Below are positions 8,162-39,315 of a stretch of 64,000 bases of DNA, piece after piece. Source of the stretch: Hydrogenophaga sp. (GTDB lineage Bacteria; Pseudomonadota; Gammaproteobacteria; Burkholderiales; Burkholderiaceae_C); the NCBI RefSeq assembly GCF_030656115.1, contig NZ_JAUSOO010000037.1:19025-83024 (forward strand). Reading direction: 5' to 3'. Position numbers and translations under genes: made by a program. Each line of letters begins with the position of its first letter. The stretch's first letter is position 1. A model generated the notes under the pieces. That model ran no database searches. It saw only the letters and a list, made by a program, of their open reading frames with translations, and had not been told where the DNA came from.

Positions 8162-8204
8162 AGCTTGCGCGCTTGCGGCCTGGGCGTCGGTGCTCTGGCG
8201 CACA
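8162..8204 (-). promoter_or_regulatory. Putative Crp/Fnr box and promoter for DUF4398-ompA
   Basis: Minus strand TGTGCGCCAGAGCACC-GACGC (8204-8184); weak -10-like CAAGCT 17 nt later. Confidence 0.6.
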
Positions 8205-8305
8205 TAGAGCGCCTGTCGGGCCGGACAATCGTTGGCGGCACAGCGGTTGCACGGGCGCGCGGTCCGGCACGCCCTGCGGTGGTTCGGGCCGTGGGCGGGT
8301 GGGGT

Positions 8306-8866
8306 TCAGCCCCGCAGCCAGCGGCTGGCCGCGGTCCGGAACACGCCGTCCCAGACCCGGGTGGTCACGCCGTAGCCGCTCACGGGGTACACATGGTGGT
8401 GCTGGGCGTGCCAGCGTTTGCGCTGGCGCAGCCAGGCGGTGTCCAGCGTCCAGTGGTGGATGGCGTGGTGCACCGTGGAATACAACAGGTAGCCCACCAG
8501 CAGCCCCAGCGTGAACGCGGCCGCCGGCCACGGGCCCAGTGCCCAGCGAGCGGGCAGGTACACCCCGCACAGGAAGAGCGTGGCGCTCACCAGCGTGGGC
8601 GTGCTGATCAGGGCCTCGGGGCGGCGGTGGTGCTCCTGGTGCCAGCGGTTGAAGGGCGGCAGCCCGTGCAGCACAAAGCGGTGCAGCGCGTATTCAAGCG
8701 CCGTCCAGGCCAGCAGCCCCCACAGCGCCCAGGCCGCCAACGGCCCCCAGGCGCCCACCGGCGCCCGCACCCCCAGGTAGGCCAGCAACGCCAGGCAGGC
8801 GGCGCCGTAGAGCACAAAGTCCAGGACATAGGCCAACGGGCTGTGCTCGGTGTTCAACAGTTTCAT
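8306..8866 (-). CDS. Sterol desaturase / fatty acid hydroxylase family protein
   Basis: His boxes EYALHRFVLH, HQEHH, HHAIHH, HAQHHH plus transmembrane segments. Confidence 0.88.
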   Translation of the reverse strand: MKLLNTEHSPLAYVLDFVLYGAACLALLAYLGVRAPVGAWGPLAAWALWGLLAWTALEYALHRFVLHGLPPFNRWHQEHHRRPEALISTPTLVSATLFLCGVYLPARWALGPWPAAAFTLGLLVGYLLYSTVHHAIHHWTLDTAWLRQRKRWHAQHHHVYPVSGYGVTTRVWDGVFRTAASRWLRG

Positions 8867-8959
8867 ACGCTCCCTTGAATGGGCCGGGCCAGCCGCCCCA
8901 AGCGGCCAACGGGTACGCCCGGTCTGCCCAACGACCCATCGTGACGGGTGGTGTTGCCA

Positions 8960-8980
8960 GGGTCTGTGCGCTGGCCCACG
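8960..8980 (-). promoter_or_regulatory. Putative Crp/Fnr box facing the desaturase gene
   Basis: Plus strand GGGTC-TGTGCGCTGGCCCACG; the -10 match at the expected spacing is weak (CACGAT). Confidence 0.5.
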
Positions 8981-8985
8981 GTGCG

Positions 8986-9028
8986 CGTTCGATAGCGCAC
9001 AGACGCCCGACAGGGCTTGGCCTACAAA
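8986..9028 (+). promoter_or_regulatory. Putative Crp/Fnr box and class II promoter for csbD
   Basis: CGTTCGATAGCGCACA (8986-9001), GACGC, then TACAAA at 9023-9028. Confidence 0.7.
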
Positions 9029-9073
9029 GGGCTGTGGCGGGCGTTTTCTGCCCACCCCAACCAAAGGATTCAC

Positions 9074-9289
9074 ATGAACTGGGACACCATTCAAGGCAAC
9101 TGGAAGCAACTGACCGGCCAGGCCAAGCAGCAGTGGGGCAAGCTGACCGACGACGACCTGGAAGTGGTGGCGGGCCACCGCGAACAGCTCGCCGGCAAGA
9201 TCCAGGAGCGCTACGGCATTGCCAAAGACGAAGCCGAGAAGCAGCTCAAGGCGTGGGAAGACCGCGCCGACGACAGCTGGCTGAAATAA
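9074..9289 (+). CDS. CsbD/YjbJ family stress protein
   Basis: MNWDTIQGNWKQLTGQAKQQWGKLTDDDL...LAGKIQERYGIAKDEAEKQ; AAGGA RBS. Confidence 0.93.
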   Translation: MNWDTIQGNWKQLTGQAKQQWGKLTDDDLEVVAGHREQLAGKIQERYGIAKDEAEKQLKAWEDRADDSWLK

Positions 9290-9392
9290 GCCACCGTTCG
9301 ACCGCTGAAGACGGCAAGGCCCTGGGTGGGCAACCCCCCAGGGCCTTGCCATGTGGGTCGGGTGCGTCGCGGCGCTGGGCCGATCAGAACGT

Positions 9393-9422
9393 TCTCAGCC
9401 TCTCAGCCTCTCAACCTCTCAG
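9393..9422. repeat. 8-bp tandem repeat (TCTCAGCC) overlapping a stop codon
   Basis: TCTCAGCC TCTCAGCC TCTCAACC TCTCAG; related copies at 6432-6445, 11584-11598 and 23743-23766. Confidence 0.8.
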
Positions 9423-10120
9423 TGCCGGTGCGCCGTCAATTCGGCGTGAATCTGTTTGTCCGCCACGTAGCAGCTGCAGGCCTCGGCCTCCAGGGCGGTG
9501 CGGTTGAGCACCGTCACCTCACCGCGGTGGTATTCGATCAGGCCGCTGTCCTGAAACCCGCCGGCCGCCATGGTGATGCCCACGCGGCGCACCCCCAGCA
9601 TCAGCGCGATGAACTCCTGGGTGACGTGGAAGGTGTCGGACTGCGCGCGGTCCTGGCTCATGAGCAGCCAGCGCGCCAGGCGCGGGCCGATCGGGTGAAA
9701 GCGCTCGCACGCCGACGCCAGCGCTTGCTGGTGCAAGCGCACCAGCAAGCTGGCCTGCACCACGTCCAGCAACGCGGGCATGTCCGCCAGACTGTTGCGC
9801 AGCGCCTCGGCACCGATGCGCCAGCCGCTGCCCGCCCCCTGCACCAGCGCCCGCCAGGGCGTTTTGGCCAGCCCCAGCACCAACTCGGAACCCAGCATCG
9901 ACTCGCGCCCGACCATGCCCACCTCCAGCGGCGGGTGGCTGTCCACATCGATCACCAGCGAAATAAAGCCCGTGCGGGGAAAGCAGGCGTGGGTCAGCGG
10001 CTGGCCGCGCACGCTGAGTTCGGCGGACAGCACCAGGTCAAAGGGTTCGCAGCGGTCCAGAAAACGGCGGCGCACCTCCACGGGCAGCTGCTGGATGAGG
10101 CGGTTTTCGGCGGAAGCCAT
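9419..10120 (-). CDS. Crp/Fnr family transcriptional regulator (paralog 1)
   Basis: cNMP-binding-like domain (FPRTGFISL, EVGMVGRESMLG) and HTH VTQEFIALMLGVRRVGIT; C-terminal ACSCY. Confidence 0.9.
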   Translation of the reverse strand: MASAENRLIQQLPVEVRRRFLDRCEPFDLVLSAELSVRGQPLTHACFPRTGFISLVIDVDSHPPLEVGMVGRESMLGSELVLGLAKTPWRALVQGAGSGWRIGAEALRNSLADMPALLDVVQASLLVRLHQQALASACERFHPIGPRLARWLLMSQDRAQSDTFHVTQEFIALMLGVRRVGITMAAGGFQDSGLIEYHRGEVTVLNRTALEAEACSCYVADKQIHAELTAHRH

Positions 10121-10280
10121 GTGGGGGTGTCTCGGTGAATACGAAGGGCCAAGAACTCCACAGCACCCAGACCGAAGCGGGCCACAGGCGCCATAGAGGC
10201 TGAAAAACATGATGGCCTGTTTGGGTCTGCCCGACCGTCTGCCAGCGCACATGGGGAGCGGCTGCAGCCTGAGCGCCACA

Positions 10281-10323
10281 TGTTCGTCAGCGCACGGACG
10301 CCTGCATGCCTCAGGCCTAAAAC
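10281..10323 (+). promoter_or_regulatory. Putative Crp/Fnr box and class II promoter for ompA
   Basis: TGTTCGTCAGCGCACG (10281-10296), GACGC, then TAAAAC at 10318-10323; same spacing as the csbD promoter. Confidence 0.7.
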
Positions 10324-10378
10324 CCATAGGTGCATTTCGCGCAAAGCGTCTCCCCCTCAGAAAACCCGAAAGACCGTC

Positions 10379-11575
10379 ATGAAAAACCATTCGCTTCCCC
10401 GCCCCACCCTGCGCCCCACCATCGGGCTGCTGTGCCTGGCCGGCCTGGGCACCTTTCTCGCTGTGCCCGCCTTGGCGCAGGACACCAGCCACTACTACGG
10501 TGGTGTGTCCGTGGGCCAGTCCAAAACCCAGACCGATGCGGCGGGTCTGACCTCGGGCCTGCTGCCGGGCGTGGGTGTGCTCAACAGCACGACGGACGAA
10601 AAAGACACGGCCTACAAGCTGTTTGGCGGCTACCAGTTCAACCGCAACATCGCGCTCGAAGGTGGTTATTTCGACCTGGGCAAAAACAGCTTCAACGCCA
10701 ACACCGTGCCCGCCGGCACACTGGCCGGCGAGTCCCGGGTGCACGGCCTGAACCTGGACCTGGTGGGCACCCTGCCCTTCACCGAGCGCTTCTCGGCCCT
10801 GGCCCGCGTGGGTGTGCAACACGCCTGGAGCAAAAGCACCGCCAGCGGCACCGGCGCCGGCGCACTGGTGGCACCGAACAGCAAACACAACGACAGCGGC
10901 GCGAAGGTGGGCTTCGGCTTGCAATACGAAATGAGCCCGGCGGTGTGGATTCGCGGTGAGGTCGAGCGCTACCGCATCAAGAACGCGGTGGGCCAGCGCA
11001 ACAACGTGGACGTGGCCACCCTGAGCCTGGTGTTCCCGTTTGGCCGGGCCCCGGTGCAGCGTGTGGCCGCAGCACCGGCCTATGTGGCACCGGCACCCGC
11101 TTATGTGGCGCCCGCACCGGTGTATGTGACACCGGCACCGCAGGTGGTGATCGTGACGCCGCCACCCGCACCGGTGGTGGTCACACCGGCGCCCCAGCGC
11201 GTGAACTTCTCGGCCGACACGCTGTTTGGTTTTGACACCGCCAACGTGCGCCCCGAAGGCCGCGCCGCGCTGGACAAGTTCAGCAACCAACTGGCCGGCA
11301 CCCGGTACGACACGATCACGGTGGAAGGCCACACCGACCGCAAGGGTTCGGCCGCCTACAACCAGACGCTGTCCACCGAGCGCGCCGAATCGGTCAAGGC
11401 CTACCTGGTGAACAGCGGCCGGCTGGACCCGGCCAGGATCAGCGCCGTGGGCAAAGGGGAAAGCATGCCCATCACGACCGCGGCCGACTGCTCGGACAAG
11501 CTGCCGCGCGCGCAGCTGATCGCCTGCCTGCAGCCCGACCGCCGGGTGGACGTGGAAGTGACCGGCACCCGCTGA
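10379..11575 (+). CDS. OmpA family outer membrane protein (beta-barrel plus peptidoglycan-binding domain)
   Basis: Signal peptide, AYKLFGGYQFNRNIALEGGYFDLG barrel, Pro/Ala repeat linker (APAYVAP)n, VEGHTDRKGS...PDRRVDVEV. Confidence 0.92.
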   Translation: MKNHSLPRPTLRPTIGLLCLAGLGTFLAVPALAQDTSHYYGGVSVGQSKTQTDAAGLTSGLLPGVGVLNSTTDEKDTAYKLFGGYQFNRNIALEGGYFDLGKNSFNANTVPAGTLAGESRVHGLNLDLVGTLPFTERFSALARVGVQHAWSKSTASGTGAGALVAPNSKHNDSGAKVGFGLQYEMSPAVWIRGEVERYRIKNAVGQRNNVDVATLSLVFPFGRAPVQRVAAAPAYVAPAPAYVAPAPVYVTPAPQVVIVTPPPAPVVVTPAPQRVNFSADTLFGFDTANVRPEGRAALDKFSNQLAGTRYDTITVEGHTDRKGSAAYNQTLSTERAESVKAYLVNSGRLDPARISAVGKGESMPITTAADCSDKLPRAQLIACLQPDRRVDVEVTGTR

Positions 11576-11592
11576 CCCAGGCGCTCAGCCTC

Positions 11593-12147
11593 TCAGCCCC
11601 TGCACAGGGGCTGTGGCCAGCCCGAAGCGGCCAGCCCGGTTGAACCAACGGGGTGGGTCGCGCGGCGCAGCACCGGGGTCTGCGCCTGTTGTTCCCGGCG
11701 CCACTGCGCCATGTGCCGGCCCAGCGCGAGCGTGTCCAGCCCGGCCAGGCGCACCGCCAGAAACAGGCCGCCCGGGGCAGCGTTCATCCACGGCACCACG
11801 CAGCCGTCCATGTCGGCCACCAGGGCGTCGCAAGCCCGGTCGCCGGGGGGCATTTCGTCGAGCTGGGCGATCAGGCTGCGCAGCTGGGCATGGTCGCAAA
11901 AATCCGCCGGTGTCGGCGGGTTGTCGCGCAGCACCTGCCACGCGGCGGGGTAAAAAAAGCGTTCTTCCAGGTGCGCGAGCAGGGTGAGCGCGTCGCACAG
12001 GCTGTCGAGCAATGCCGCCCGGTCTGCGGCCCGTTCGTCCACCAGACGCACCCGCTCGTATTGGCGCAGCAGCGCACGCACGCGCCCATGCTCCAGCAAC
12101 AACTGGTCGAGCGCGTCGCGTGCGCGAGGAAGGCACTTGGGACGCAT
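11593..12147 (-). CDS. Hemerythrin-like domain protein (degenerate)
   Basis: DALDQLLLEH...AHLEERFFYP...DHAQ; the final H/EE ligand segment is not evident. Confidence 0.65.
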   Translation of the reverse strand: MRPKCLPRARDALDQLLLEHGRVRALLRQYERVRLVDERAADRAALLDSLCDALTLLAHLEERFFYPAAWQVLRDNPPTPADFCDHAQLRSLIAQLDEMPPGDRACDALVADMDGCVVPWMNAAPGGLFLAVRLAGLDTLALGRHMAQWRREQQAQTPVLRRATHPVGSTGLAASGWPQPLCRG

Positions 12148-12163
12148 ACCGGCACCCAGGGGT

Positions 12164-12889
12164 TCAAACCGCCTGCGTGGGGGGCAACAAGCGGTCGTAC
12201 TCGCTCTTCACCACCTGGTAGCACTCGCAGGTGCGCTGCTCCAGGCCCGGCCGGTCCAACACCTTGATGTGGCCGCGTGCGTAGCGGATGAGCCCGGCCT
12301 TTTGCAGGCTCAGCGCGGCCTCGGTCACGCCTTCGCGGCGCACACCGAGCATGTTGGCGATCAGCTCCTGCGTCATGACCAGGTTGTCGCCCGGCAGACG
12401 GTCCAGGCTCAGCAACAGCCAGCGGCAGAGCTGCTGGTCCAGCGAATGGTGGCGGTTGCACACCGCCGTTTGCGACATCTGCGTGATGAGCGCCTGGGTG
12501 TAGCGCAGCAGCAGGTGCATGACCGGGCTGGAGCGGCCGAACTCGTCTTTCATGGCGCCCGCGCGCAAGCGCAGGGCTTTGCCGGCGCTTTGCACCACCG
12601 CCCGGCTGGGGGTGGAGCCGCCGCCCATGAAGATGGAAATGCCCACAATGCCCTCGTGGCCCACCACGGCGATTTCGGCCGACGCACCGTTTTCCAGCAC
12701 GTACAGCAGCGACACGATGGCGGTGGTGGGAAAGTACACGGCGCTCATCTGGGAACCCGATTCGTACAGCACCATGCCCAGCGGCAGGTCCACGGGTTCC
12801 AGCTGCGGTTGCCAGCGCAGCCATTCGGCGTCGGGCAGGACGTCCAACAACTGGTTCCCGCGTGTCGGGTGGGCGGCGGCGGCGGTCAT
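12164..12889 (-). CDS. Crp/Fnr family transcriptional regulator (paralog 2)
   Basis: VYFPTTAIVSLLY...AEIAVVGHEGIVG; HTH MTQELIANMLGVRREGVTEAA; C-terminal CECY. Confidence 0.93.
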   Translation of the reverse strand: MTAAAAHPTRGNQLLDVLPDAEWLRWQPQLEPVDLPLGMVLYESGSQMSAVYFPTTAIVSLLYVLENGASAEIAVVGHEGIVGISIFMGGGSTPSRAVVQSAGKALRLRAGAMKDEFGRSSPVMHLLLRYTQALITQMSQTAVCNRHHSLDQQLCRWLLLSLDRLPGDNLVMTQELIANMLGVRREGVTEAALSLQKAGLIRYARGHIKVLDRPGLEQRTCECYQVVKSEYDRLLPPTQAV

Positions 12890-12953
12890 CGGCGGTCCTT
12901 CATAGGTCGTGTGTATTGGAGATTGCAGGGCAAAGCCTTATGGTAATTTGTGA

Positions 12954-12996
12954 ATTTTTTCACGCAGAGGCGCCTGCGTCTGTACGGTATCGCACC
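12954..12996 (-). promoter_or_regulatory. Putative Crp/Fnr box upstream of the Crp/Fnr gene itself
   Basis: Plus strand GCGTC-TGTACGGTATCGCACC (12976-12996); AAAAAT on the minus strand 17 nt beyond GACGC. Confidence 0.65.
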
Positions 12997-13075
12997 AACG
13001 TCGGTCCCGGTCGGCCCACCCAGCAGCGTGGGTGGGCGCCGTACGGCAGGGCCTTTCAGCCTCTCTCGCAGGCAG

Positions 13076-16000
13076 CTAGGCGCTGGGCGGTAGCGGGATC
13101 ACAAAGCAGCCGTCCCCCGGCCAATCGGCCCAGCGCAGCCGCTCGGCCACGGGCAACAAGCGCCCGCCCATCTGGGTGCAGGCCGCCTGCGCGGCCGCCG
13201 GCGTGGCCCGCAGCAGCACGAAGCGCAGGGTGCGCCCGTCGCGCGTCAGGCGCAGTTCGGCGCGGGGCCAGTGCGACGGCAGGCACGGCACGAAGCGCAG
13301 CCCGTCGGCGCGCAGTTGCAAACCCAACAGGGACTCCACCGCCGCGCGGTGCATCCAGCCGGCGGCGCCGGTGTACCAGCTCCAGCCGCCGCGCCCGGCG
13401 TAAGGGGGCTGGCTGTACACGTCGGCGGCCATCACATAGGGCTCCAGGCCGTAGGCGGCGCCTCCATCCGCGTGCTGGGCCCGGTGGGCCGGGCTGAGGT
13501 AGGTGAAGTAGCGGTAGGGCGTGTCGCCGGCGGCGTGGTCGTGGCCGGGCTCGGTGGGGCCTGGTGCGCGCTCGCGCACCGCCAGGGCGGCGGCGGCCAT
13601 CAGGGCCCACACGCCTGCGTGGGCGTATTGGCCGCCGTTTTCACGCACCCCCGGCGGGTAGGCCTGGATGTAACCAGCGCTGGGCGTGGCCTGGGCCAGC
13701 GGGGGTGCAAGCAACTGGATCAACCCGTTCTGCGCGTCCACCAGGTGGTGTTCAACCGCGTCCATGGCCAGGCGCTGGCGCTCCAGCAGCCGCCTGGAAT
13801 GCGACATGCCCGACAGCACCGACCAGGCCTGCGCGATCAGGTCGATGCGCGCTTCGGCGTTGCGGTGGGAGCCGAGGGCGCTGCCGCCGTCAAAGTAGGC
13901 GCGCGCGTACCAGCCGCCGTCCCAGGCGGTGGTTTGCAGGGCGTCGCCCCAGCACTGCAAAGCAACGTGCCAGCGCGCGGCGCGCAGGTGTTCACCGCGG
14001 TGGCGCGCCAGCGGTATCCAGTCGGTGACGATGGCGCACAGAAACCACGCCAGCCACACCGATTCGCCGCGCCCTTCGTGGCCCACGCGGTTCATGCCGT
14101 CGTTCCAGTCGCCCGTGCCCATGAGCGGCAGGCCGTGCACGCCCACGGCCAGGCTGCGGTCGATGGTGCGGGCGGCGTGTTCGTACACGCTGGCCGTGGC
14201 TTCGCTGGTGCGCGGCGTGTCGTAGGCGTCTTCGGCGCCCTCGGGCACGGGCGGGCCGTCCAGAAAGGGCACGCGGTGGTCCAGCACCGCCGTGTCGCCC
14301 GTGACGCGCAGGTAGTGGGCGCAGGCAAAGGGCAGCCACAGCAGGTCGTCTGAGAAATGGGTGCGCACACCGGCGCCGCCAGGGTCGTGCCACCAGTGCT
14401 GCACGTCGCCGGCCTCGAACTGGCGCGAGGCGCAGAGCACGATCTGGTCGCGCAAGATGCCGGGCTGCGCCCACACCAGGGCCATGGCGTCTTGCAGCTG
14501 GTCGCGAAAGCCGGTGGCGCCGCCGGCCTGGTAGAAGCCGGCCTTGGCCCACAGGCGGCTGGACACGGTCTGGTAGAGCAGCCAGCGGTTGACCAGCGCA
14601 TCGAGCAGCGGGTCGGGGGTGCTGACCTGGGTGGCGCCCAGCAGCGCGTCCCACTGCGCCCGCACACAGCGCTCGCGCTCGGCTGCGGTGGTGCGCACGG
14701 CTTGCAGCGCCAGCGCCTGGGCCTCGGCAGGGCTGGCGGCGTAGCCCAGCAGGAACCGCTGCTCCTGGCTCGCGCCGGGTCGCAGGGTGATCAGGCGGCT
14801 GATGGCCGCGCAGGGGTCGAGCCCGTCGCCGCTGCGCTGGCCCAGGTGCTCGGGCAGCACCAGTTGGCCCTGGGGGTCAAAAAAGGCGCCCCGGTCGCAG
14901 GTCCAGTCCAGGCCGTCGTTGAGCCCTGGGCTGTCGGCGTCGGGGGACCCATTGGCGGTGTGTGCTCCGGCGGCCACGGCGCAGAAAAAGGCGGTGCCGC
15001 CCCCGAAGCCTTGGCCGGCTTCGGTCTGGGTGCACAGCAAGCCCAGCAGGTCGGTGCTGGCGGGGTCGGTGTGGTGGGCCTGGGTGTGCAGCGTGGCGCG
15101 GTCGCTGCGCTTCTCGCCCATCATCCATTCCACCAGGCCGGTCAACCGCAGGTAGGCCGTGCGGGTGCCGTGGTTCACCAGCCGCACGCTCACCTGCTTC
15201 ACGGCGGTGTGGGCGTCCACACACCAGCGCAGTTCCACCGCCAGCGGCCCGTGGCGGTGGCCGATGCGGGTGTAGCCCTGGCCGTGCTCCACCTGGTACA
15301 CCGCCTGCGGGTGGCCCCAGGCCGAGGGCGCGAGGCTCCAGGCCTCGCCGGTGCGCCGGTCTTGCAGCAAAAACCACTCGGCGGGCGGGTCGGCCACCGG
15401 GTCGTTGGACCAGGCGGTGAGCTGGTTCAGCCGGCTGTTCAGGGCCCAGGTGTTGCCGGCACCGCTCTCGGACACCTGCGTGCCCAGGGCGGGGTTGGCG
15501 AGCACGTTGATCCAGGGTTTGCCAGGGCGCTGGGCCGGGCCCACGTCAAAACGGAAGGCCCCGCTGTCGGGATCAAAGTGGCCCACGGCGGCGGTGCGGG
15601 TGTCTGGCTGGTGGCAGGGCACCCGCACCGCCGCAGCGCCATGCCAGCGCAGCGACGGAGGCCTTTCGTGCTGAGCACACCAGGCGGTGATCTGCGGCAG
15701 CAGCGGGTGGCCATCGGTCCTGATCCGCACCCGGGCCAGGGCTTGCAGCGCGCCGAACTGCTCGGAGGACAAGGTGTCTGCCCGCAGCAGGTGCAGGCCG
15801 GTCACCGCCGGGCCTTGGCGGCCCAGCTGGTCGTTCGCGTGCTGCGCTTGCAACGCCACCAGTTCGCGCTGCAGGGGCATCAGGTACGAATGGGGTTCGC
15901 TGCTGAGCAGCACCAGGTCGCAGGCCACACCGCAGCGCGACCACTCGCGCAGCGCTTGCACCAGCGCGCGCAGCACGGCCAGGCCTTCGGGCACGCCGGC

Positions 16001-21757: not shown

Positions 21758-21760
21758 GCG

Positions 21761-22003: not shown

Positions 22004-22062
22004 GGTGGGCTCCGGTGGCAGCCGGCAGGCAAGCCAGCAGGCGGGTGAAAACAGCAGGCTTG

Positions 22063-22105
22063 TTTATAGCGGCGGGCTCGGTGGGCGTCTGTTCGCTGAC
22101 GAACA
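22063..22105 (-). promoter_or_regulatory. Putative Crp/Fnr box and promoter for the ndvB operon
   Basis: Plus strand GCGTC-TGTTCGCTGACGAACA (perfect arms TGTTCG/CGAACA); TATAAA on the minus strand at 22068-22063. Confidence 0.75.
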
Positions 22106-22152
22106 TTCGCACCCGACGCCGGCCCCGCGACCCAGGGCGTGCACGGCCGGTG

Positions 22153-22195
22153 TGCGCGCCAGCGAACAGACGGGGTGCAGCGGGCCACGTAAGGT
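22153..22195 (+). promoter_or_regulatory. Putative Crp/Fnr box and promoter for the glycine-zipper lipoprotein
   Basis: TGCGCGCCAGCGAACA, GACGG, then TAAGGT at 22190-22195. Confidence 0.65.
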
Positions 22196-22282
22196 GGGTT
22201 TCCACCCGGTTTTGGGTGCAGGGGCCCAGCGCCCCCAGCACCCAACCCCACGCACCACCCCGCTGCCACGCTCAGGAACCCC

Positions 22283-22891
22283 ATGCACCACACCCCCACC
22301 CGTTTCCCCTGGACCCTCAGCCTCACCGCCGTGGCGGTGCTGGCCCTGGCCGGCTGCGCCGCGCCCTACCCGGTGTACGACCAGCCGGTGGTGCAGGCCG
22401 CACCGGCACGGGTCTACACCCACCCCAGCCAGCCGGCACCCGCACGCGACTACCGCCGCCGCAACAACGAGCCGCTCTACCAGGCCGACGTAACGTCGGT
22501 GCGCGCCGTGATGGGTGCGCCCGAACAGCGTTGCTGGATCGAGCGCGAAGCCGTGCCGGAGCGGCCCGCGGCGAACGTGCCGGGGGCACTGATCGGCGCG
22601 CTGATCGGCGGCGTGCTGGGCCACCAGGTGGGCGGCGGCAGCGGGCGCGACCTGGCCACCGTGGGCGGTGCGGTGGCGGGTGCCGCCATCGGCTCCAGCG
22701 TGGGCACCGACCGCTACGGCAACACCGTGGGCACGCAAGATGTGCAACGCTGCACGCCAGAAACCGGCCGCAGCACGCCCGCTTACTGGGACGTGACCTA
22801 CACCTTCCGGGGCATCAGCCACCGCGCGCAGACGACCTCGGCACCGGGACGCACCATCACCGTGAACAGCGCGGGCGAACCCCGCACCTGA
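22283..22891 (+). CDS. Glycine zipper 2TM lipoprotein
   Basis: LAGC lipobox; GALIGALIGGVLGHQVGGGSGRDLATVGGAVAGAAIG. Confidence 0.88.
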   Translation: MHHTPTRFPWTLSLTAVAVLALAGCAAPYPVYDQPVVQAAPARVYTHPSQPAPARDYRRRNNEPLYQADVTSVRAVMGAPEQRCWIEREAVPERPAANVPGALIGALIGGVLGHQVGGGSGRDLATVGGAVAGAAIGSSVGTDRYGNTVGTQDVQRCTPETGRSTPAYWDVTYTFRGISHRAQTTSAPGRTITVNSAGEPRT

Positions 22892-22918
22892 GCGGCTGAC
22901 ATATTCATGGCCTATGCT

Positions 22919-22960
22919 GCGTGGGCCCACCCCTGTGCGGGTGGCCCACGCGGCTTTTTT
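22919..22960 (+). terminator. Probable intrinsic terminator
   Basis: GCGTGGGCCCACCC...GGGTGGCCCACGC hairpin followed by GGCTTTTTT. Confidence 0.55.
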
Positions 22961-22988
22961 CGTCTCCCTGTTTTTCAGGAAACACAAC

Positions 22989-23738
22989 ATGCTCAAGAAC
23001 AAAGTGGTTTTGATCACCGGTGCCGCCTCCGGCATTGGCCGTGCCGTGGCGCTGGCCTGTGCGCGCGAAGGGGCGTCGGTGCTGGTGTCCGACCGCGACG
23101 ACGCCGGCCTGCAAGAAACCGCCGCTCTGGTGCGTACCGAGGGCTGCGAAGCCCTGGCCGTGACCGCCGACGTGGGCAACCCCGCCGACTGCCAGAACCT
23201 GGTGGACCGCTGCTGTGCCCACTTTGGGCGGCTCGATGTGGCGGTGAACAACGCCGGCATTGGCGGCCCCAGCGCGCGCACCGCCGACTACCCGCTGGAC
23301 GGCTGGGCGCAGGTGATCCAGGTCAACCTCTCGGGCGTGTTCTACGGCATGAAGTACCAGATCGAGGCGATGCTGCGCACCGGCGGCGGCGCCATCGTGA
23401 ACGTGGCGTCCATCCTGGGCGCGGTGGGCTTTGCGTCGGCACCGGCCTACGCGGCGGCCAAACACGGCGTGGTGGGCCTCACGCAAACCGCCGCGCTGGA
23501 ATACGGCGCCGAGGGTGTGCGCATCAACGCGGTGGGGCCGGGCTTCATCCGCACGCCCATGATTGCCGCGCTGGACGAAGACCCGGCGGTGCACGGCATG
23601 CTGGTGGCGGCCCACCCCATGGGGCGGCTGGGCGAGTCGGAAGAGGTGGCCGAGTTGGTGGTGTGGCTGGCCTCGCCCCGGGCCTCGTTCGTGACCGGGG
23701 CTTATTACCCGGTGGACGGCGGCTACCTGGCGCGCTGA
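22989..23738 (+). CDS. Short-chain dehydrogenase/reductase (glucose 1-dehydrogenase-like)
   Basis: TGAASGIG, NNAG, YAAAKHG (YxxxK), VDGG. Confidence 0.93.
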   Translation: MLKNKVVLITGAASGIGRAVALACAREGASVLVSDRDDAGLQETAALVRTEGCEALAVTADVGNPADCQNLVDRCCAHFGRLDVAVNNAGIGGPSARTADYPLDGWAQVIQVNLSGVFYGMKYQIEAMLRTGGGAIVNVASILGAVGFASAPAYAAAKHGVVGLTQTAALEYGAEGVRINAVGPGFIRTPMIAALDEDPAVHGMLVAAHPMGRLGESEEVAELVVWLASPRASFVTGAYYPVDGGYLAR

Positions 23739-23759
23739 GCGGCTCAACCCCTCAGCGGC

Positions 23760-24574
23760 TCAGCCCAGAATCTCGACCCCGAAGCCCCGGTAGCCGACAA
23801 AGTTGCAGGCGCCATCGAACATGGGCGTGCCGCTGACGCGGTATTCCTTGTGCAGACCGTCGGCACACCGGCGGCTCAGGCGCACGTCCAGAAACGGCGT
23901 GCGCGCACTGATGCGGGCCTGCAGCGCCTGGCGCTGCGCCTCGTCCCAGCCGTCGTCGGCAGGCGCCACGGCATCGTCGGCCAGTGCGTCCACGCGGATG
24001 CCCAGCATCTCCAGCACCGGGCCCGACACCTTGGTGAAGTGCCCTTCGCGGTCTTGCTCCCAATACCAGTCGGTGGCCAGCTCGGTCAGGCTGCGGTAGC
24101 GCGCTTCGCTCTCGCGCAGTTCGGCGGTGCGCTCCAGCACCTCGGCTTCCAGCAGTTTGTTCTGGTGGGCCAGACGCTGGTAGAGCAGGCGCACCTCCAC
24201 CAGGTTGTGAATGCGCGTCTTCACCTCCACCAGGTCAAACGGCTTGCTCACAAAGTCTTTGGCACCGGCCTGCAGCGCACGCAGTTTGTGGCCCGGCTGG
24301 GCCGTGATCACCAGCACCGGCAGGTAGTCGTTGGCGTTGTTGGCTTTCAGGCCTTCCATCACCTGAAAACCGTCCATCACCGGCATCTGCAGGTCCAGCA
24401 AGATCAGGTCAAACGGCTGGCGGCGGTGCATGGCGCACACGGTGGTCGGGTCCTGTGTGCTGAACACCTGGGTGTAGCCCGCCGCCGCCAGCATGTCTTC
24501 GAGCAGGAGCACATTGGCGGCCTGGTCGTCAACGATGAGAATGCGGGCGCTGAGCAGGTCGTGGGCGGCAAGGG

Positions 24575-24578
<4 letters not shown>
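23760..24578 (-). CDS. Response regulator with C-terminal PAS domain and no evident output domain
   Basis: ILIVDD...LILLDLQMPVMDG...DFVSKPF receiver, coiled coil, then DWYWEQD PAS. Confidence 0.88.
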
Positions 24579-26272
<1,694 letters not shown>

Positions 26273-26319
26273 CGTGTGTGGGGTTTGAGGTCAGCGCCCA
26301 GATCCGTGCGCAGCCTGCT

Positions 26320-26363
26320 ACCGTACATTGGGCCCGTGTGCGGCGTCTGTGCGCCAACCCACA
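26320..26363 (-). promoter_or_regulatory. Putative Crp/Fnr box and promoter for the kinase-regulator operon
   Basis: Plus strand GCGTC-TGTGCGCCAACCCACA; TACGGT on the minus strand 18 nt beyond GACGC. Confidence 0.65.
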
Positions 26364-26381
26364 CAACAGGTTACAAAAAAT

Positions 26382-26531
26382 TCAGAACGGCTTGCGCCCG
26401 CTGATCACGCGCAACAGGACCACCACCACGGCAATGACCAGCAGCACATGGATGAAGCCGCCCAAGGTGGTCGAGGTGACAAGGCCCAGCAACCACAAGA
26501 TGAGCAGCACGACGGCGAGGGTGTAAAGCAT
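26382..26531 (-). CDS. lmo0937-family small membrane protein
   Basis: Manual translation MLYTLAVVLLILWLLGLVTSTTLGGFIHVLLVIAVVVVLLRVISGRKPF (49 aa, below the ORF-track cutoff). Confidence 0.85.
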   Translation of the reverse strand: MLYTLAVVLLILWLLGLVTSTTLGGFIHVLLVIAVVVVLLRVISGRKPF

Positions 26532-26546
26532 GGGATGGCTCCAGGG

Positions 26547-26990
26547 TCAGGTGGGGGGAGATGAAGGCGGGGTGCGCTGGCGCCAGCGCGCCCAGAACAC
26601 CGTGGTCACCGCGAGTGCCGCCGCGACCAACACGGTTTTGGGGTGGCGGCGCAGCACCGACGCTGCCGTGCCCAGCACCAGCACCTGCAAGGCCGGCGCC
26701 GTGCCACCGGGGGCGGGGCGCAGCCAGGCGCGCGCCAGCGCACCCAGGGCCAGCACAGCCAGCGGGTGGTGGCGCCAGCGGTTGAGCACAGGCAGGGCGG
26801 CCAGCGCCTCCCAACCCGCGCCGGGTGCGGTGCGGGTGGCACGGTCGTGGTCCAGCCAGCTGGCCAGTTGCGCGCGGCTCAGGGCCAGACGTTCGCTGGC
26901 GCTGAGCGCCACCGGGGCGGGCCAGACGGCAGGCGCGTGCAATGCTGGCGCGGCGGCTTCGGTGGCGGGCGTGTGCGGCGCCGTGCTCAT
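26547..26990 (-). CDS. Hypothetical membrane-associated protein
   Basis: In operon with the upstream gene (4-nt overlap); hydrophobic C-terminal helices. Confidence 0.65.
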   Translation of the reverse strand: MSTAPHTPATEAAAPALHAPAVWPAPVALSASERLALSRAQLASWLDHDRATRTAPGAGWEALAALPVLNRWRHHPLAVLALGALARAWLRPAPGGTAPALQVLVLGTAASVLRRHPKTVLVAAALAVTTVFWARWRQRTPPSSPPT

Positions 26991-27370
26991 GGTGTGCCCG
27001 TGCGGCGCAGCAAGGCGGCGTCTTCGGCCAGTTGCAGGCGCAGCACGGCGAACGGTTCACCCGGGTGGCGGTTTTGCCCCAGCCACAGGCTGCCAGCGCC
27101 CAGCAGCGCGGGCACCAGCGGCGTGAGCAGCAGCGGCCAGGGGTTGCGCGTGGCCGCCTCGGGCAGCGCGGCCCACAGCATCACCGCCACACCCGCCAGC
27201 ACCGCAGCGACCGCCAGGCAGGCCGCACCGGCCAGCAAAAATGCCGCCCGCTTCTGCCAGCGGGCGCTGCTGGCCGCGAGGGCTTCAGACAGCAGGCTGG
27301 CGTAGCCCGCAGCATGCTCGGCCAGCAATTGGGGCTGCGCCGCAGCCAGACGAAACACCGGGTGGATCAT
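26987..27370 (-). CDS. YqjE / phage-holin-family-like membrane protein
   Basis: Two TM helices (AAFLLAGAACLAVAAVLAGVAVMLWA); located downstream of DUF883, as in elaB/yqjDE-type operons. Confidence 0.7.
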   Translation of the reverse strand: MIHPVFRLAAAQPQLLAEHAAGYASLLSEALAASSARWQKRAAFLLAGAACLAVAAVLAGVAVMLWAALPEAATRNPWPLLLTPLVPALLGAGSLWLGQNRHPGEPFAVLRLQLAEDAALLRRTGTP

Positions 27371-27388
27371 GCGCGCGGACTCCAGCGC

Positions 27389-27745
27389 TCAGCGACCCGG
27401 GCCGCTGTGCTTGCTCAGCAAGGCCACCAGGCCCATGAGGGCCGCGCCCACGGCAGCAGCCATCAGCACCGACTTGATCGGCTCGTGCTGGATGTAGTGG
27501 GTGGTGGTGTCTTTGGCGTGCAGCGAACGCTCGCGCAGCTGGTCGGCACCGTCGCGCACGGCGTCCATGCCGCGGTGGGCCAGCGTCTCGGTGTCGTGGG
27601 CGAACTGCTTGAGCGCGGCGCTGGTGTGCGAGCGGGCGTCTTCCAGGCTGTCCAGGCCTTGCTGGGCCGCACGCTCGGTGCTGTGGGCCACCGAACGGGC
27701 CAGGGCGGTGGCGTCGTCGCTCAGATTTTGAATGGGGTTGCTCAT
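27389..27745 (-). CDS. DUF883 (ElaB/YqjD) family protein
   Basis: C-terminal YIQHEPIKSVLMAAAVGAALMGL anchor. Confidence 0.8.
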   Translation of the reverse strand: MSNPIQNLSDDATALARSVAHSTERAAQQGLDSLEDARSHTSAALKQFAHDTETLAHRGMDAVRDGADQLRERSLHAKDTTTHYIQHEPIKSVLMAAAVGAALMGLVALLSKHSGPGR

Positions 27746-27808
27746 GGAAAGCTTTCGAAAAAAAGGAAGCAGTGGCACCGCAAAGCAGCGCCACCGCCGG
27801 TTGTTTTG

Positions 27809-28045
27809 TTATTTCTTGGTGTCCACCTGGTTGCCAATGAGGCCACCAATGGCCGCACCGCCCAGGGTGCCGATGGTGCTGCCACCGGTCAGCACAGCGC
27901 CACCGACGGCACCAGCGCCGGCACCGATGGCCGTGTTCTGGTCCTGGCGCGACATGTTGCCGCAGGCACCCAGGCTGGCAGCCAGGGTCAGCGCGGCGGC
28001 CAGGGCCAGGCCGCGAGACAGGCGTTGCGTGTGTTGTGTGTTCAT
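27809..28045 (-). CDS. OsmB-like glycine zipper lipoprotein
   Basis: LGAC lipobox; NTAIGAGAGAVGGAVLTGGSTIGTLGGAAIGGLIG. Confidence 0.85.
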   Translation of the reverse strand: MNTQHTQRLSRGLALAAALTLAASLGACGNMSRQDQNTAIGAGAGAVGGAVLTGGSTIGTLGGAAIGGLIGNQVDTKK

Positions 28046-28113
28046 GGAGAAACCTCTGAGCAATAGGGGAGCTGAAACCGTGCGGCACCGGTTCGGGCGC
28101 CGCCTGGGGCCGC

Positions 28114-28428
28114 TTACTTCAGGCGCATGTCGTTCTTGACCGAACGCACACCGCTCACGGCCTGCGTCACGACCACGGCCTTGTTGATGTCGGCCTGGCT
28201 GTTCACAAAGCCGCTCAGCTGCACAGCGCCTTTGAAGGTTTCGACGTTGATCTCGGCCGACTTCAGGGTGGGCTCGTTGAAAATCGCGGCCTTCACCTTG
28301 GCGGTGATGGCGGTGTCGTCCATGTACTGGCCGGTGCTTTCCTGCGTGGCGCTGGAGGCGCAGCCACCCAGCGTGGTGAAGGCAGCAGCGGCGAGCAAGA
28401 GAATGGAGAAACGGTGGTTGATGCGCAT
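28114..28428 (-). CDS. BON domain lipoprotein (OsmY-like)
   Basis: LGGC lipobox; DDTAITAKVKAAI...INVETFKGAVQLSGFV...GVRSVKNDM. Confidence 0.92.
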   Translation of the reverse strand: MRINHRFSILLLAAAAFTTLGGCASSATQESTGQYMDDTAITAKVKAAIFNEPTLKSAEINVETFKGAVQLSGFVNSQADINKAVVVTQAVSGVRSVKNDMRLK

Positions 28429-28517
28429 GGTGAACTTTCTTGGGGAGTTGAACGGACGGTGCGGCCCAAGGCAACACCGCTTGGCGAACCGGTTCAGTGT
28501 CCAGCGCCAATGGGCCA

Positions 28518-28560
28518 ACAGTAGGGCTTGGGGCGCGGCGCGTCTGTGCGCTGGCGCACG
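28518..28560 (-). promoter_or_regulatory. Putative Crp/Fnr box and promoter for the BON-osmB-DUF883 operon
   Basis: Plus strand GCGTC-TGTGCGCTGGCGCACG; TACTGT on the minus strand at 28523-28518 (17 nt spacing). Confidence 0.75.
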
Positions 28561-39314: not shown

Positions 39315-39315
39315 C

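What the first reader, a model, noticed from the sequence alone, without database searches (positions are those of the whole stretch)
8162..28560. Nine-site Crp/Fnr-type promoter signature defining a self-contained stress regulon
Seen: a 16-bp imperfect palindrome TGT[G/T/A]CG-N4-CG[C/A]ACA, flanked on one side by GACGC (or GACGG/GACCC), occurs at 8189-8204, 8965-8980, 8986-9001, 10281-10296, 12981-12996, 22090-22105, 22153-22168, 26348-26363 and 28545-28560. In each case the GACGC side points at the nearest gene start. A TA-initiated -10-like hexamer follows at fixed distance in six of them: TACAAA, TAAAAC, TATAAA, TAAGGT and TACTGT at 17 nt, TACGGT at 18 nt. If +1 lies 7 nt after the hexamer, the box centre falls at -41.5. 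Established: CRP binds TGTGA-N6-TCACA (also 16 bp) and activates class II promoters from -41.5. Inference: one of the two resident Crp/Fnr proteins reads this variant box and co-activates csbD, ompA, DUF4398-ompA, ndvB, the lipoproteins, the BON/DUF883 operon and the kinase operon. Homologs of several of these genes are RpoS or SigB regulon members elsewhere, so this may be a Crp-driven general or osmotic stress response. I do not recognise this box from described regulons, but I cannot confirm it is novel.
Basis: partly seen in the sequence, partly recalled or inferred. Interest (0 to 1): 0.88.

Follow-up and report, generated by a model that had tools for sequence, protein, structure and literature searches.

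The report
Crp-family stress regulon promoter box
A 16-bp palindrome sits at a fixed position in ten promoters of a Hydrogenophaga-like gene cluster; it is most likely the binding site of an unstudied but very widespread Crp/Fnr-type regulator that switches on envelope and general-stress genes and its own genes.

Summary
The nine sites exist, all in promoters and all pointing at the adjacent gene. Each held-out site still ranks in the top 10 of 128,000 positions.

- **Replication:** the box recurs in 80 other genomes (217 hits against about 7 expected). A TAnnnT -10 hexamer, not used in the search, lies exactly 21 nt after it, which puts the box centre at -41.5.
- **Transcripts:** metatranscriptome contigs stop 4-25 nt inside the predicted start at seven promoters. 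At one promoter (8189) a contig runs through the box.
- **Which protein binds:** 67% of Crp#2-type genes carry the box upstream. A DNA-only metagenome scan finds Crp#1/Crp#2-type genes in 24 of 120 loci. Where the recognition helix is RRSG instead of RREG, box position 4 switches from G/T to C/A.
- **Additions:** I add a tenth, degenerate site before crp#1. The module also sits on plasmids, including pKLC102. Both paralogs carry conserved cysteines.
- **Limits:** "self-contained" is not supported, and no binding experiment exists.

I found no description in the literature I could search. Verdict: a real, undescribed Crp/Fnr subfamily regulon using ordinary class II activation. Interest 0.62.

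The parts
8155..8204 (-). Promoter of the DUF4398 / DUF4398-OmpA operon: box 8189-8204 (TGTGCGCCAGAGCACC), GAC, -10-like CAAGCT at 8162-8167, predicted +1 about 8155
   Evidence: 22.5 bits. This is the weakest site: an RNA contig spanning 7620-8214 runs through the box, so this start site is not supported.
8931..8980 (-). Promoter of the fatty-acid hydroxylase gene: box 8965-8980, GAC, -10-like CACGAT at 8938-8943, predicted +1 about 8931
   Evidence: An RNA contig spans 8385-8917 and goes no further. The box centre is 21 bp from the csbD box centre.
8986..9035 (+). Promoter of csbD: box 8986-9001 (CGTTCGATAGCGCACA), GACGCC, -10 TACAAA at 9023-9028, predicted +1 about 9035
   Evidence: 28.6 bits. 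RNA contigs begin at 9070/9073 with depth about 100. This is compatible with the prediction but does not resolve it.
10202..10251 (-). Tenth site, not in the finding: degenerate box TGTGCGCTGGCAGACG (10236-10251) + GTC + N18 + CATCAT before crp#1, predicted +1 about 10202
   Evidence: The same variant (TGTGCGCTGGCAGACGGTC) lies about 100 nt upstream of Crp#1 orthologs in many genomes. An RNA contig reaches 10190.
10281..10330 (+). Promoter of the OmpA-like porin: box 10281-10296, GACGCC, -10 TAAAAC at 10318-10323, predicted +1 about 10330
   Evidence: RNA contigs begin at 10355 and 10382.
12947..12996 (-). Promoter of crp#2 (autoregulation): box 12981-12996, GACGCA, -10 AAAAAT at 12954-12959, predicted +1 about 12947
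   Evidence: RNA contigs reach 12928/12929 and depth is 0 beyond 12934. 81 of 121 Crp#2-type genes elsewhere have a box within 350 nt upstream.
22056..22105 (-). Promoter of the 80-aa gene and the cyclic beta-1,2-glucan synthase: box 22090-22105 (the only perfect palindrome), GACGCC, -10 TATAAA at 22063-22068, predicted +1 about 22056
   Evidence: 29.4 bits. RNA contigs reach 22044/22031/22005. One contig runs from the small gene into ndvB.
22153..22202 (+). Promoter of the glycine-zipper lipoprotein and SDR genes: box 22153-22168, GACGGG, -10 TAAGGT at 22190-22195, predicted +1 about 22202
   Evidence: RNA coverage is too low to judge.
26313..26363 (-). Promoter of the hybrid histidine kinase / REC-PAS operon: box 26348-26363, GACGCC, -10 TACGGT at 26320-26325 (one nt further out), predicted +1 about 26313
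   Evidence: An RNA contig reaches 26309.
28511..28560 (-). Promoter of the BON / Gly-zipper / DUF883-like / membrane-protein operon: box 28545-28560, GACGCG, -10 TACTGT at 28518-28523, predicted +1 about 28511
   Evidence: Contigs from four metatranscriptomes reach 28502/28497/28489/28464 and depth is 0 from 28522 upward.
12164..12889 (-). crp#2: Crp/Fnr-family regulator, recognition helix GVRREGVTE, conserved Cys144/155/221/223. Best candidate for the protein that reads the box
   Evidence: Pfam cNMP_binding + HTH_Crp_2; no NCBIfam family; AF2 pLDDT 83.9 with a CRP fold; cysteine conservation; co-variation with the box.
9419..10120 (-). crp#1: paralogous Crp/Fnr regulator, recognition helix GVRRVGIT, invariant Cys146/223/225
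   Evidence: A crp#2-then-crp#1 tandem is the common arrangement elsewhere.
11593..12147 (-). Hemerythrin-domain gene 16 nt downstream of crp#2, probably co-transcribed with it
   Evidence: Pfam. It is not a conserved neighbour elsewhere.
6651..8080 (-). DUF4398 lipoprotein (7658-8080) and DUF4398-OmpA lipoprotein (6651-7604)
   Evidence: Pfam.
8306..8866 (-). Fatty-acid hydroxylase family membrane protein
   Evidence: Pfam. Start codon placed.
9074..9289 (+). CsbD-family stress protein
   Evidence: Pfam.
10379..11575 (+). OmpA-like outer-membrane protein (beta-barrel + OmpA domain)
   Evidence: Pfam.
13076..22003 (-). 80-aa protein (21761-22003) and a 2893-aa GH94 / glucoamylase-domain protein, a cyclic beta-1,2-glucan synthase type (13076-21757)
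   Evidence: Pfam. Co-transcription.
22283..23738 (+). Glycine-zipper lipoprotein (22283-22891) and short-chain dehydrogenase (22914-23738)
   Evidence: Pfam.
23760..26272 (-). PAS-HisKA-HATPase-REC hybrid kinase (24575-26272) and REC-PAS protein (23760-24578)
   Evidence: Pfam. The hybrid kinase is a recurrent box target elsewhere.
26382..28428 (-). BON lipoprotein (28114-28428), Gly-zipper lipoprotein (27809-28045), DUF883-like (27389-27745), two membrane proteins (26987-27370, 26547-26990), DUF5670 (26382-26531)
   Evidence: Pfam, (DUF883_C is weak, E=0.076). Translations. One RNA contig spans 26957-28497.

Best explanation
The sites are operators of an undescribed, very widespread subfamily of Crp/Fnr transcription factors. 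The window encodes a pair of them: Crp#2 (recognition helix RREGVTE) and Crp#1 (RRVGIT).

Proposed mechanism:
1. A dimer binds the 16-bp box TGTGCGC-N2-GCGCACA, whose core TGTG-N8-CACA has the same spacing as the CRP site.
2. The box ends 21 nt before a TAnnnT -10 hexamer, so its centre lies 41.5 bp upstream of the start site.
3. On the promoter side the box abuts GAC, the remnant of a -35 element (cAGACn against TTGACA, 17-nt spacer).
4. From there the dimer activates a sigma70-type polymerase as a class II activator.

Targets here are ten transcription units for envelope, osmotic and general-stress proteins: CsbD, a BON lipoprotein, a DUF883-like protein, glycine-zipper lipoproteins, OmpA-type proteins, a cyclic beta-1,2-glucan synthase and a fatty-acid hydroxylase. 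A hybrid kinase/REC-PAS pair and both crp genes are also targets, which gives positive feedback.

Shown: the sites, their geometry, their conservation, their link to the regulator, and approximate transcript 5' ends. Inferred: binding, activation rather than repression, and the physiological role. The signal is unknown. cAMP is unlikely, and the conserved cysteines suggest redox or metal sensing.
For: **Sites are non-random.** Leave-one-out ranks are all 10 or better out of 128,000 positions. The nine score 22.5-29.4 bits with a matrix from other genomes, against a control maximum of 18.

**Replication.** 80 loci from other species give 217 hits at 14 bits or more against 6-10 in controls, and 61 against 0 at 20 bits or more. 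Both arms are equally conserved (G2 184/184, C15 182/184), as expected for a dimer.

**Geometry, from positions outside the search matrix.** TAnnnT peaks sharply at position 38 (31 cases), 39 (13) and 37 (4), and is near zero elsewhere.

**Transcripts.** RNA contig limits lie 4-25 nt inside the predicted +1 at seven promoters, and none crosses it:
- BON operon: 28502 against 28511
- kinase operon: 26309 against 26313
- hydroxylase: 8917 against 8931
- ndvB operon: 22044 against 22056
- ompA: 10355 against 10330
- crp#2: 12929 against 12947
- crp#1: 10190 against 10202
.

**Link to the regulator.**
- 81 of 121 Crp#2-type and 29 of 48 Crp#1-type genes have a box upstream.
- A scan of metagenomes with DNA alone finds Crp#1/Crp#2 homologs in 24 of 120 short loci, and BON, CsbD, NdvB, OmpA-DUF4398 and kinase genes in many others.
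- No other DNA-binding protein is encoded in the cluster.
- Arg185-Glu186 align with the Arg-Glu pair of GlxR.
- Loci whose regulator has RRSG instead of RREG have C/A instead of G/T at box position 4: 42/52 against 81/378 arms, and 5 of 5 against 1 of 50 loci.

**Fold.** The predicted structure is CRP-like (TM 0.72 to the M. tuberculosis CRP-DNA complex).
Against: - There is no binding or expression experiment.
- RNA evidence comes from assembled metatranscriptome contigs, not mapped 5' ends. Resolution is about 10-25 nt and DNA carry-over cannot be excluded.
- At site 8189 a contig runs through the box.
- The 80 genome loci were fetched through the regulator, so co-occurrence there is partly by construction. 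The metagenome scan has no scrambled-pattern control.
- All RRSG-type loci are Burkholderiaceae, so the co-variation may reflect a single evolutionary switch, and arms within a locus are not independent.
- Which paralog binds (Crp#2, Crp#1 or a heterodimer) is unresolved. G versus T at position 4 did not sort by target gene.
- A site overlapping the -35 region could also repress.
Confidence: 0.75

Rival explanations
1. The same Crp/Fnr protein binds the box but acts as a repressor. It sits over the -35 region and blocks polymerase until a stress signal releases it.
For: The box overlaps the -35 position. Autoregulatory sites are often negative. No expression data with and without the regulator exist.
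Against: The -35 elements are poor (only GAC is kept, and 94 of 207 boxes lack even that), as expected for activator-dependent promoters. The spacing is rigid at exactly the class II position, which repression does not require. In the metatranscriptomes crp#2 (depth 19-30) and its targets (csbD about 100, BON operon up to 75) are expressed together.
Confidence: 0.12
2. Another dimeric regulator encoded elsewhere in the genome reads the box, for example a LuxR/TraR-type protein. From memory, the tra box shares the outer arms TGTGC...GCACA. On this view the Crp genes are only targets.
For: The outer five bases of each arm resemble the TraR box (recalled, not tested). Only 64 kb of the genome is visible.
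Against: No LuxR/GerE-type HTH protein is encoded in the cluster. The box accompanies Crp#1/Crp#2-type genes in 24 of 120 loci found by DNA alone. Box position 4 changes together with the Crp recognition helix.
Confidence: 0.07
3. The conserved sequence is the -35 region of an alternative (ECF-type or RpoS-like) sigma factor promoter rather than a transcription-factor site.
For: It sits at a fixed distance from a -10-like element. The gene content resembles sigma-controlled stress regulons.
Against: The element is a two-fold symmetric palindrome with equally conserved arms. Boxes serve either strand, and 94 of 207 lack the GAC flank. The -10 is sigma70-like TAnnnT, with no marked C just upstream of it.
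Confidence: 0.04
4. The sites are chance matches, or copies of a dispersed repeat with no regulatory role.
For: A GC-rich 12-mer with two mismatches is not enriched (33 observed, 27 expected).
Against: Leave-one-out ranks, a 30-fold excess in other genomes, strictly intergenic and oriented placement, a fixed -10 distance, and flanks that are not conserved as a repeat would be.
Confidence: 0.02

Closest known systems
E. coli CRP (CAP) at class II promoters such as galP1
   Same: A dimeric Crp-family protein binds a 16-bp site with core TGTG-N8-CACA, centred at -41.5 and overlapping a weak -35. The Arg-Glu pair of the recognition helix is kept.
   Different: The inner positions are CGC..GCG instead of A-N6-T. 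The third contact, Arg185, is Glu here. The phosphate-binding cassette lacks the Gly-Glu motif, so cAMP is unlikely (inspection only). Sequence identity to any solved Crp-family structure is 15-20%. There is an extra C-terminal helix carrying a CxC motif. The targets are stress genes, not catabolic genes.
Thermus thermophilus SdrP and Deinococcus DdrI (stress-responsive Crp-family activators; recalled from memory)
   Same: Crp/Fnr-family activators that turn on stress-protection genes from CRP-like sites. SdrP does so without a cyclic nucleotide.
   Different: Distant lineages and different boxes. Neither has the cysteine set or the tandem paralog arrangement. No sequence relationship beyond the superfamily was seen. 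A related Thermus protein, 3b02, appears only at rank 43.
FixK/Anr-type control of the Burkholderia cenocepacia low-oxygen (lxa) stress locus
   Same: A Crp/Fnr-family regulator linked to a cluster of BON, USP and other stress genes in a Burkholderiales genome.
   Different: The lxa box is FNR-type, TTGAT-N4-ATCAA (PMC12973609). The regulator BCAM0049 is a FixK homolog under FixLJ. The B. cenocepacia ortholog of Crp#2 is a separate gene with its own TGTCCG-N4-CGGACA boxes.
Sinorhizobium meliloti Clr (cAMP/cGMP receptor; box recalled as TGTT-N8-AACA)
   Same: A CRP-like box in which position 4 can be T, as in several sites here (22090: TGTTCG...CGAACA). It is a structural neighbour (7pza).
   Different: Clr binds cyclic nucleotides and controls symbiosis-related genes. 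It is 17% identical and has no cysteine motif.
RpoS (E. coli), SigB (Bacillus) and EcfG (Alphaproteobacteria) general stress regulons
   Same: Overlapping gene content: csbD/yjbJ, osmY-type BON, elaB/yqjD-type DUF883, osmB-type glycine-zipper lipoproteins, cbpA, catalase, dps, osmC and hpf.
   Different: Those regulons are defined by a sigma factor and its promoter. Here the shared element is a palindromic activator site on sigma70-like promoters.

Membership tests
Crp/Fnr superfamily transcription factor (the regulators) | C-terminal Crp-type winged helix-turn-helix | tested here: met
   PF13545 HTH_Crp_2: Crp#2 E=2.5e-14, Crp#1 E=1.9e-13.
Crp/Fnr superfamily transcription factor (the regulators) | N-terminal beta-barrel effector domain, a long dimerisation helix, and the overall fold | tested here: met
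   PF00027 scores 28.1 bits against a cut-off of 27.5 for Crp#2; it is not detected for Crp#1. The AF2 model (pLDDT 83.9) has strands 31-109 and helix 122-147. Foldseek gives TM 0.65-0.72 to CRP, GlxR and FNR.
cAMP receptor protein (CRP/CAP) in the strict sense | Consensus site TGTGA-N6-TCACA | tested here: not met
   The core TGTG-N8-CACA and the 16-bp length are kept. Positions 5-7 are CGC (C5 162/184, G6 168/184), not A-N-N.
cAMP receptor protein (CRP/CAP) in the strict sense | cAMP-contacting residues of the phosphate-binding cassette (Gly-Glu ... Arg-Ser) | tested here: inconclusive
cAMP receptor protein (CRP/CAP) in the strict sense | Recognition helix Arg180-Glu181...Arg185 | tested here: inconclusive
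   Arg-Glu is kept in Crp#2 (aligned to the Arg-Glu of GlxR). The third position is Glu. Crp#1 has Val in place of Glu.
FNR/FixK subfamily | N-terminal cysteine cluster for a [4Fe-4S] centre | tested here: not met
   The first cysteine of Crp#2 is Cys144. The conserved cysteines are 144, 155, 221 and 223.
FNR/FixK subfamily | Box TTGAT-N4-ATCAA | tested here: not met
   The box consensus is TGTGCGCTAGCGCACA.
Class II activator-dependent sigma70 promoter | Activator site centred near -41.5, overlapping a weak -35, at a fixed distance from a -10 hexamer | tested here: met
   The hexamer sits at positions 38-43 in the window and in other genomes. RNA contig limits lie 4-25 nt inside the predicted +1 at seven promoters, with one exception. 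This is not nucleotide resolution.
Class II activator-dependent sigma70 promoter | Transcription depends positively on the bound protein | not testable with these tools
   This needs mutants, reporters or in-vitro transcription.
Sigma-factor general stress regulon (RpoS/SigB/EcfG type) | The shared promoter element is a sigma-specific -35/-10 pair | tested here: not met
   The shared element is a symmetric palindrome usable on either strand.
Sigma-factor general stress regulon (RpoS/SigB/EcfG type) | Typical gene content (CsbD, BON/OsmY, DUF883, catalase, Dps, CbpA, OsmC, HPF) | tested here: met
   This is a resemblance of function only.

The most novel reading that the evidence does not exclude
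The four conserved cysteines are Cys144 at the end of the dimer helix, Cys155, and the C-terminal Cys221-x-Cys223. They could hold an Fe-S cluster or metal, or form a disulphide switch, that couples the DNA-binding domain to redox or oxygen state. That would make this pair of paralogs a new sensory class of Crp/Fnr protein. It would be the master switch of a horizontally mobile general-stress module, found on chromosomes and on plasmids or ICEs such as pKLC102, acting beside or instead of RpoS in Burkholderiales and Xanthomonadales.
Probability: 0.3. Interest if true: 0.78.

Novelty: new member of a known kind. Interest (0 to 1): 0.62.

Why it matters
The regulator family is very large: at least 8000 clusters at 90% identity, all named only "Crp/Fnr family". 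It occurs in environmental Comamonadaceae, Oxalobacteraceae and Rhodanobacteraceae. It also occurs in Burkholderia cenocepacia and B. multivorans, Ralstonia solanacearum, Cupriavidus, and the Pseudomonas aeruginosa element pKLC102.

If the model is right, three things follow:
- Dozens of "hypothetical stress protein" genes gain a regulator, a binding site and a predicted start site.
- It would show how these bacteria switch on envelope and osmotic protection in groundwater, where these genes are expressed in the metatranscriptomes examined, at high contig depth for csbD and the BON operon.
- It offers a simple specificity rule to test: Glu goes with TGTG/TGTT, Ser with TGTC/TGTA.

Mechanistically it is an ordinary class II Crp-type activator, so it extends a known principle rather than changing it.

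Tried and rejected
- **Exact-consensus search.** Only one hit, so I replaced it with position weight matrices.
- **12-mer GCGCACAGACGC with two mismatches.** Not enriched, because it is too short and GC-rich.
- **Does G versus T at box position 4 sort by target gene, and so by paralog?** No pattern. Which paralog binds remains open.
- **Hemerythrin as a conserved sensor partner of Crp#2.** It is not a conserved neighbour.
- **Named families.** NCBIfam has no model for either Crp. The PDB sequence search gives only weak superfamily hits.
- **Literature.** Searches by sequence, by gene content, by taxa and by DAP-seq found no description of this box or regulator.
  - The B. cenocepacia lxa/FixK system uses an FNR-type box.
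  - The Rhodanobacter DAP-seq preprint discusses only canonical Clp among the Crp-family proteins.
  - The BerA (Bcam1349) search produced no binding motif to compare.
- **Rfam.** No RNA family in the window.
- **RNA at two stretches.** I replaced them with shorter stretches.
- **The hit at 40117-40138.** It lies inside the AI-2E transporter gene, has no -10 hexamer and scores within the control range, so I rejected it as a site.

Full report
**1. The observation**

The window is 64 kb with 66.6% G+C. Its closest relatives are Hydrogenophaga genomes, and groundwater metagenomes hold it almost intact. All nine sites are at the stated coordinates.

TGTNCG-N4-CGNACA matches exactly once, at 22090. 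Oriented towards the adjacent gene, the nine sites align as [T/C]GTGCGCnnGCGCACA-GAC-N18-TAnnnT.

Two tests show the sites are not chance:
- In leave-one-out tests every held-out site ranks in the top 10 of about 128,000 positions.
- A matrix built only from boxes of other genomes recovers the same nine at 22.5-29.4 bits. The next distinct site scores 13.4, and 50 Markov controls reach at most 18.

All nine lie between genes and face a gene start.

**2. The genes**

Pfam assigns the transcription units as follows:

| Coordinates | Strand | Product |
|---|---|---|
| 7658-8080 and 6651-7604 | - | DUF4398 lipoprotein and DUF4398-OmpA lipoprotein |
| 8306-8866 | - | fatty-acid hydroxylase |
| 9074-9289 | + | CsbD |
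| 9419-10120 | - | Crp/Fnr #1 |
| 10379-11575 | + | OmpA-like porin |
| 12164-12889 and 11593-12147 | - | Crp/Fnr #2 and a hemerythrin-domain protein |
| 21761-22003 and 13076-21757 | - | 80-aa protein and a 2893-aa GH94 cyclic beta-1,2-glucan synthase type protein |
| 22283-23738 | + | glycine-zipper lipoprotein and SDR |
| 23760-26272 | - | PAS-HisKA-HATPase-REC hybrid kinase and a REC-PAS protein |
| 26382-28428 | - | BON lipoprotein, Gly-zipper lipoprotein, DUF883-like protein (weak hit), membrane proteins, DUF5670 |

The only DNA-binding proteins in the cluster are the two Crp/Fnr paralogs.

**3. Replication in other genomes**

A search of one genome per species with Crp#2 found at least 582 relatives. 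The best 80 loci are 73-90% identical. They span Comamonadaceae, Oxalobacteraceae, Rhodanobacteraceae and Steroidobacteraceae.

The window-derived matrix hits these 1.28 Mb 217 times at 14 bits or more, against 6-10 in controls. At 20 bits or more the counts are 61 against 0. The 184 distinct boxes give the consensus T-n-TGTGCGCTAGCGCACA-GAC. Both arms are equally conserved (G2 184/184, C15 182/184), which is the signature of a dimer.

Positions that were not in the matrix show T(82) A(109) n n n T(108) at 38-43. With a box-only symmetric matrix (207 boxes against 14 in controls), TAnnnT peaks at offset 38 (31 cases), 39 (13) and 37 (4), and is essentially absent elsewhere. GAC flanks one side in 109 boxes, neither side in 94 and both sides in 4.

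So the box sits at a rigid distance from a sigma70-like -10. Its centre is 41.5 bp from a start placed 7 nt after the hexamer. The GAC falls where the GAC of TTGACA would lie with a 17-nt spacer.

**4. Transcripts**

Four groundwater or freshwater metatranscriptomes hold these genes as assembled contigs. The table compares the furthest-upstream contig limit with the predicted +1.

| Promoter | Contig limit(s) | Predicted +1 |
|---|---|---|
| BON operon | 28502 / 28497 / 28489 / 28464 | 28511 |
| kinase operon | 26309 | 26313 |
| hydroxylase | 8917 | 8931 |
| 80-aa/ndvB operon | 22044 | 22056 |
| ompA | 10355 | 10330 |
| crp#2 | 12929 | 12947 |
| crp#1 | 10190 | 10202 |

None of these contigs crosses the predicted start, and depth is zero over the boxes. 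For csbD the contigs begin at 9070, which is compatible with a start near 9035 but not informative.

The exception is site 8189. A contig spanning 7620-8214 runs through the box. This is either read-through from the hydroxylase gene upstream on the same strand or a different start. This site also has the poorest -10.

Contig ends are not mapped 5' ends, so this is supporting evidence, not proof.

**5. Which protein binds**

- *Autoregulation.* 81 of 121 Crp#2-type genes, and 29 of 48 Crp#1-type genes, have a box within 350 nt upstream. Many Crp#1 orthologs carry a conserved degenerate version, TGTGCGCTGGCAGACGGTC. The window has it at 10236-10251 with CATCAT at the right distance.
- *A scan that ignores the regulator.* Searching metagenome contigs for the DNA pattern alone gave 120 loci totalling 716 kb. 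Of these, 24 carry a Crp#1 or Crp#2 homolog. Many others carry BON, CsbD, NdvB, OmpA-DUF4398, Gly-zipper or hybrid-kinase genes. Downstream genes also include Dps/ferritin-like, PRC-barrel, DUF3309, catalase, CbpA and DUF883 proteins (compare).
- *The recognition helix.* It is GVRREGVTE in Crp#2-type proteins. Arg185-Glu186 align with the Arg-Glu pair of GlxR, which corresponds to Arg180-Glu181 of CRP (established knowledge). Glu181 reads the base pair that corresponds to position 4 of this box.
- *Co-variation.* In 70 loci whose regulator has RREG, position 4 is G 51%, T 28%, A 17% and C 4%. In the Burkholderiaceae loci whose regulator has RRSG (B. cenocepacia, B. multivorans, R. solanacearum, C. 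pauculus, Paraburkholderia) it is C or A in about 80% of arms. The Fisher test gives p=6e-17. By locus, the C/A majority holds in 5 of 5 RRSG loci against 1 of 50 RREG loci. Arms are not independent, and the Ser type may be a single clade. Even so, a whole regulon's sites changed together with the helix, which is what a cognate pair should show.

**6. The regulators**

Neither paralog matches an NCBIfam model.

The AF2 model (pLDDT 83.9) has a CRP fold plus an extra C-terminal helix. Solved relatives are only 15-20% identical. The best TM is 0.72, to the M. tuberculosis CRP-DNA complex.

Cysteine conservation:
- Crp#2 type: Cys144 123/123, Cys155 113/123, Cys221 118/120, Cys223 117/119.
- Crp#1 type: Cys146, Cys223 and Cys225, each 53/53.

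There is no N-terminal FNR-type cysteine cluster. By inspection the cyclic-nucleotide cassette lacks its Gly-Glu, so cAMP is an unlikely signal. What the proteins sense is unknown. A redox or metal switch is the most attractive guess, but it is untested.

A crp#2-then-crp#1 tandem is the usual arrangement.

**7. Mobility**

The module also sits on plasmids and integrative elements:
- P. aeruginosa pKLC102: Crp, a GH94 glucan synthase and a desaturase.
- R. solanacearum pRsT78: Crp, CsbD, DUF3309, a Gly-zipper protein and an AI-2E transporter.
- A B. multivorans plasmid: three Crp genes, PRC-barrel, CsbD and an NdvB-like protein.
- A C. pauculus plasmid: Mn catalase, hemerythrin, phasin and YihY.

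This probably explains the 75-80% identity across bacterial orders.

**8. Comparison and verdict**

The system works like a class II CRP-type activator. It is a member of the Crp/Fnr superfamily, but of neither the CRP nor the FNR/FixK subfamily. The gene content mirrors the RpoS, SigB and EcfG regulons, but the shared element is an activator site, not a sigma promoter.

The nearest published stress locus with a Crp-family regulator is the B. cenocepacia lxa/FixK system, which uses an FNR-type box. I found no description of this box or regulator in the searchable literature. Subscription-only papers could not be searched.

"Self-contained" is not supported. Other genomes place the box before gene families that are absent from this window, and the rest of this genome is unseen.

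I rate it a new member of a known kind: real, widespread and readily testable.

Noticed in passing
window 10236-10251 (minus strand): A degenerate box, TGTGCGCTGGCAGACG + GTC + N18 + CATCAT, lies before crp#1. The same variant, with its right arm changed to CAGAC, is conserved about 100 nt upstream of Crp#1 orthologs in many genera. This suggests a deliberately weaker or differently read site.
   Followed up: partly
window 8965-9001 and 22090-22168: There are two divergent promoter pairs. The boxes at 8965 and 8986 are 21 bp apart centre to centre (two helical turns), serving the hydroxylase gene and csbD. The boxes at 22090 and 22153 are 63 bp apart, serving ndvB and the lipoprotein gene.
   Followed up: no
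window 35700-39600: A stretch with atypical codon composition was missed by the GC3 gene caller. It encodes a 663-aa and a 295-aa protein with no Pfam match, plus a PIN-domain protein (38904-39314). It may be an inserted island or a toxin-antitoxin/defence locus.
   Followed up: partly
window 40117-40138 (inside the AI-2E transporter gene 39672-40706): This is the best box-like hit outside the cluster (13-20 bits). It lies inside a coding region, has no -10 hexamer and scores within the control range. AI-2E transporter genes do sit next to the Crp gene on the R. solanacearum and C. pauculus plasmids (L202, L205).
   Followed up: partly
window 4584-6224 (minus strand): A dCache-GGDEF diguanylate cyclase is encoded just outside the cluster. 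It has no box. It would be relevant only if the Crp proteins turn out to bind c-di-GMP, as Clp and BerA do.
   Followed up: no
window 11593-12147: The hemerythrin-domain protein downstream of crp#2 has a faint NCBIfam match to the PA2171 ribosome-binding persister protein family (E=3.9e-4, far below the cut-off).
   Followed up: no
L204 (P. aeruginosa pKLC102), L202, L203, L205, L206: The Crp gene and its stress genes (glucan synthase, CsbD, DUF3309, PRC-barrel, Mn catalase, CbpA/CbpM) are carried on plasmids and integrative conjugative elements of clinical and plant-pathogenic species. The stress module is therefore horizontally mobile.
   Followed up: partly
L084, L121 (metagenome loci, 44-46% G+C): The box and a Crp#2 homolog (80% identical over its best segment in L084) occur in low-GC contigs. 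The system is therefore not confined to high-GC Burkholderiales, and the GC-rich box is kept against the genome's composition.
   Followed up: no
Every sub-stretch tried was accepted: 7620-8300, 8250-9400, 10150-11650 and 12700-13075. The offending part therefore probably lies in 12100-12700, inside crp#2. The reason is unknown.
   Followed up: no
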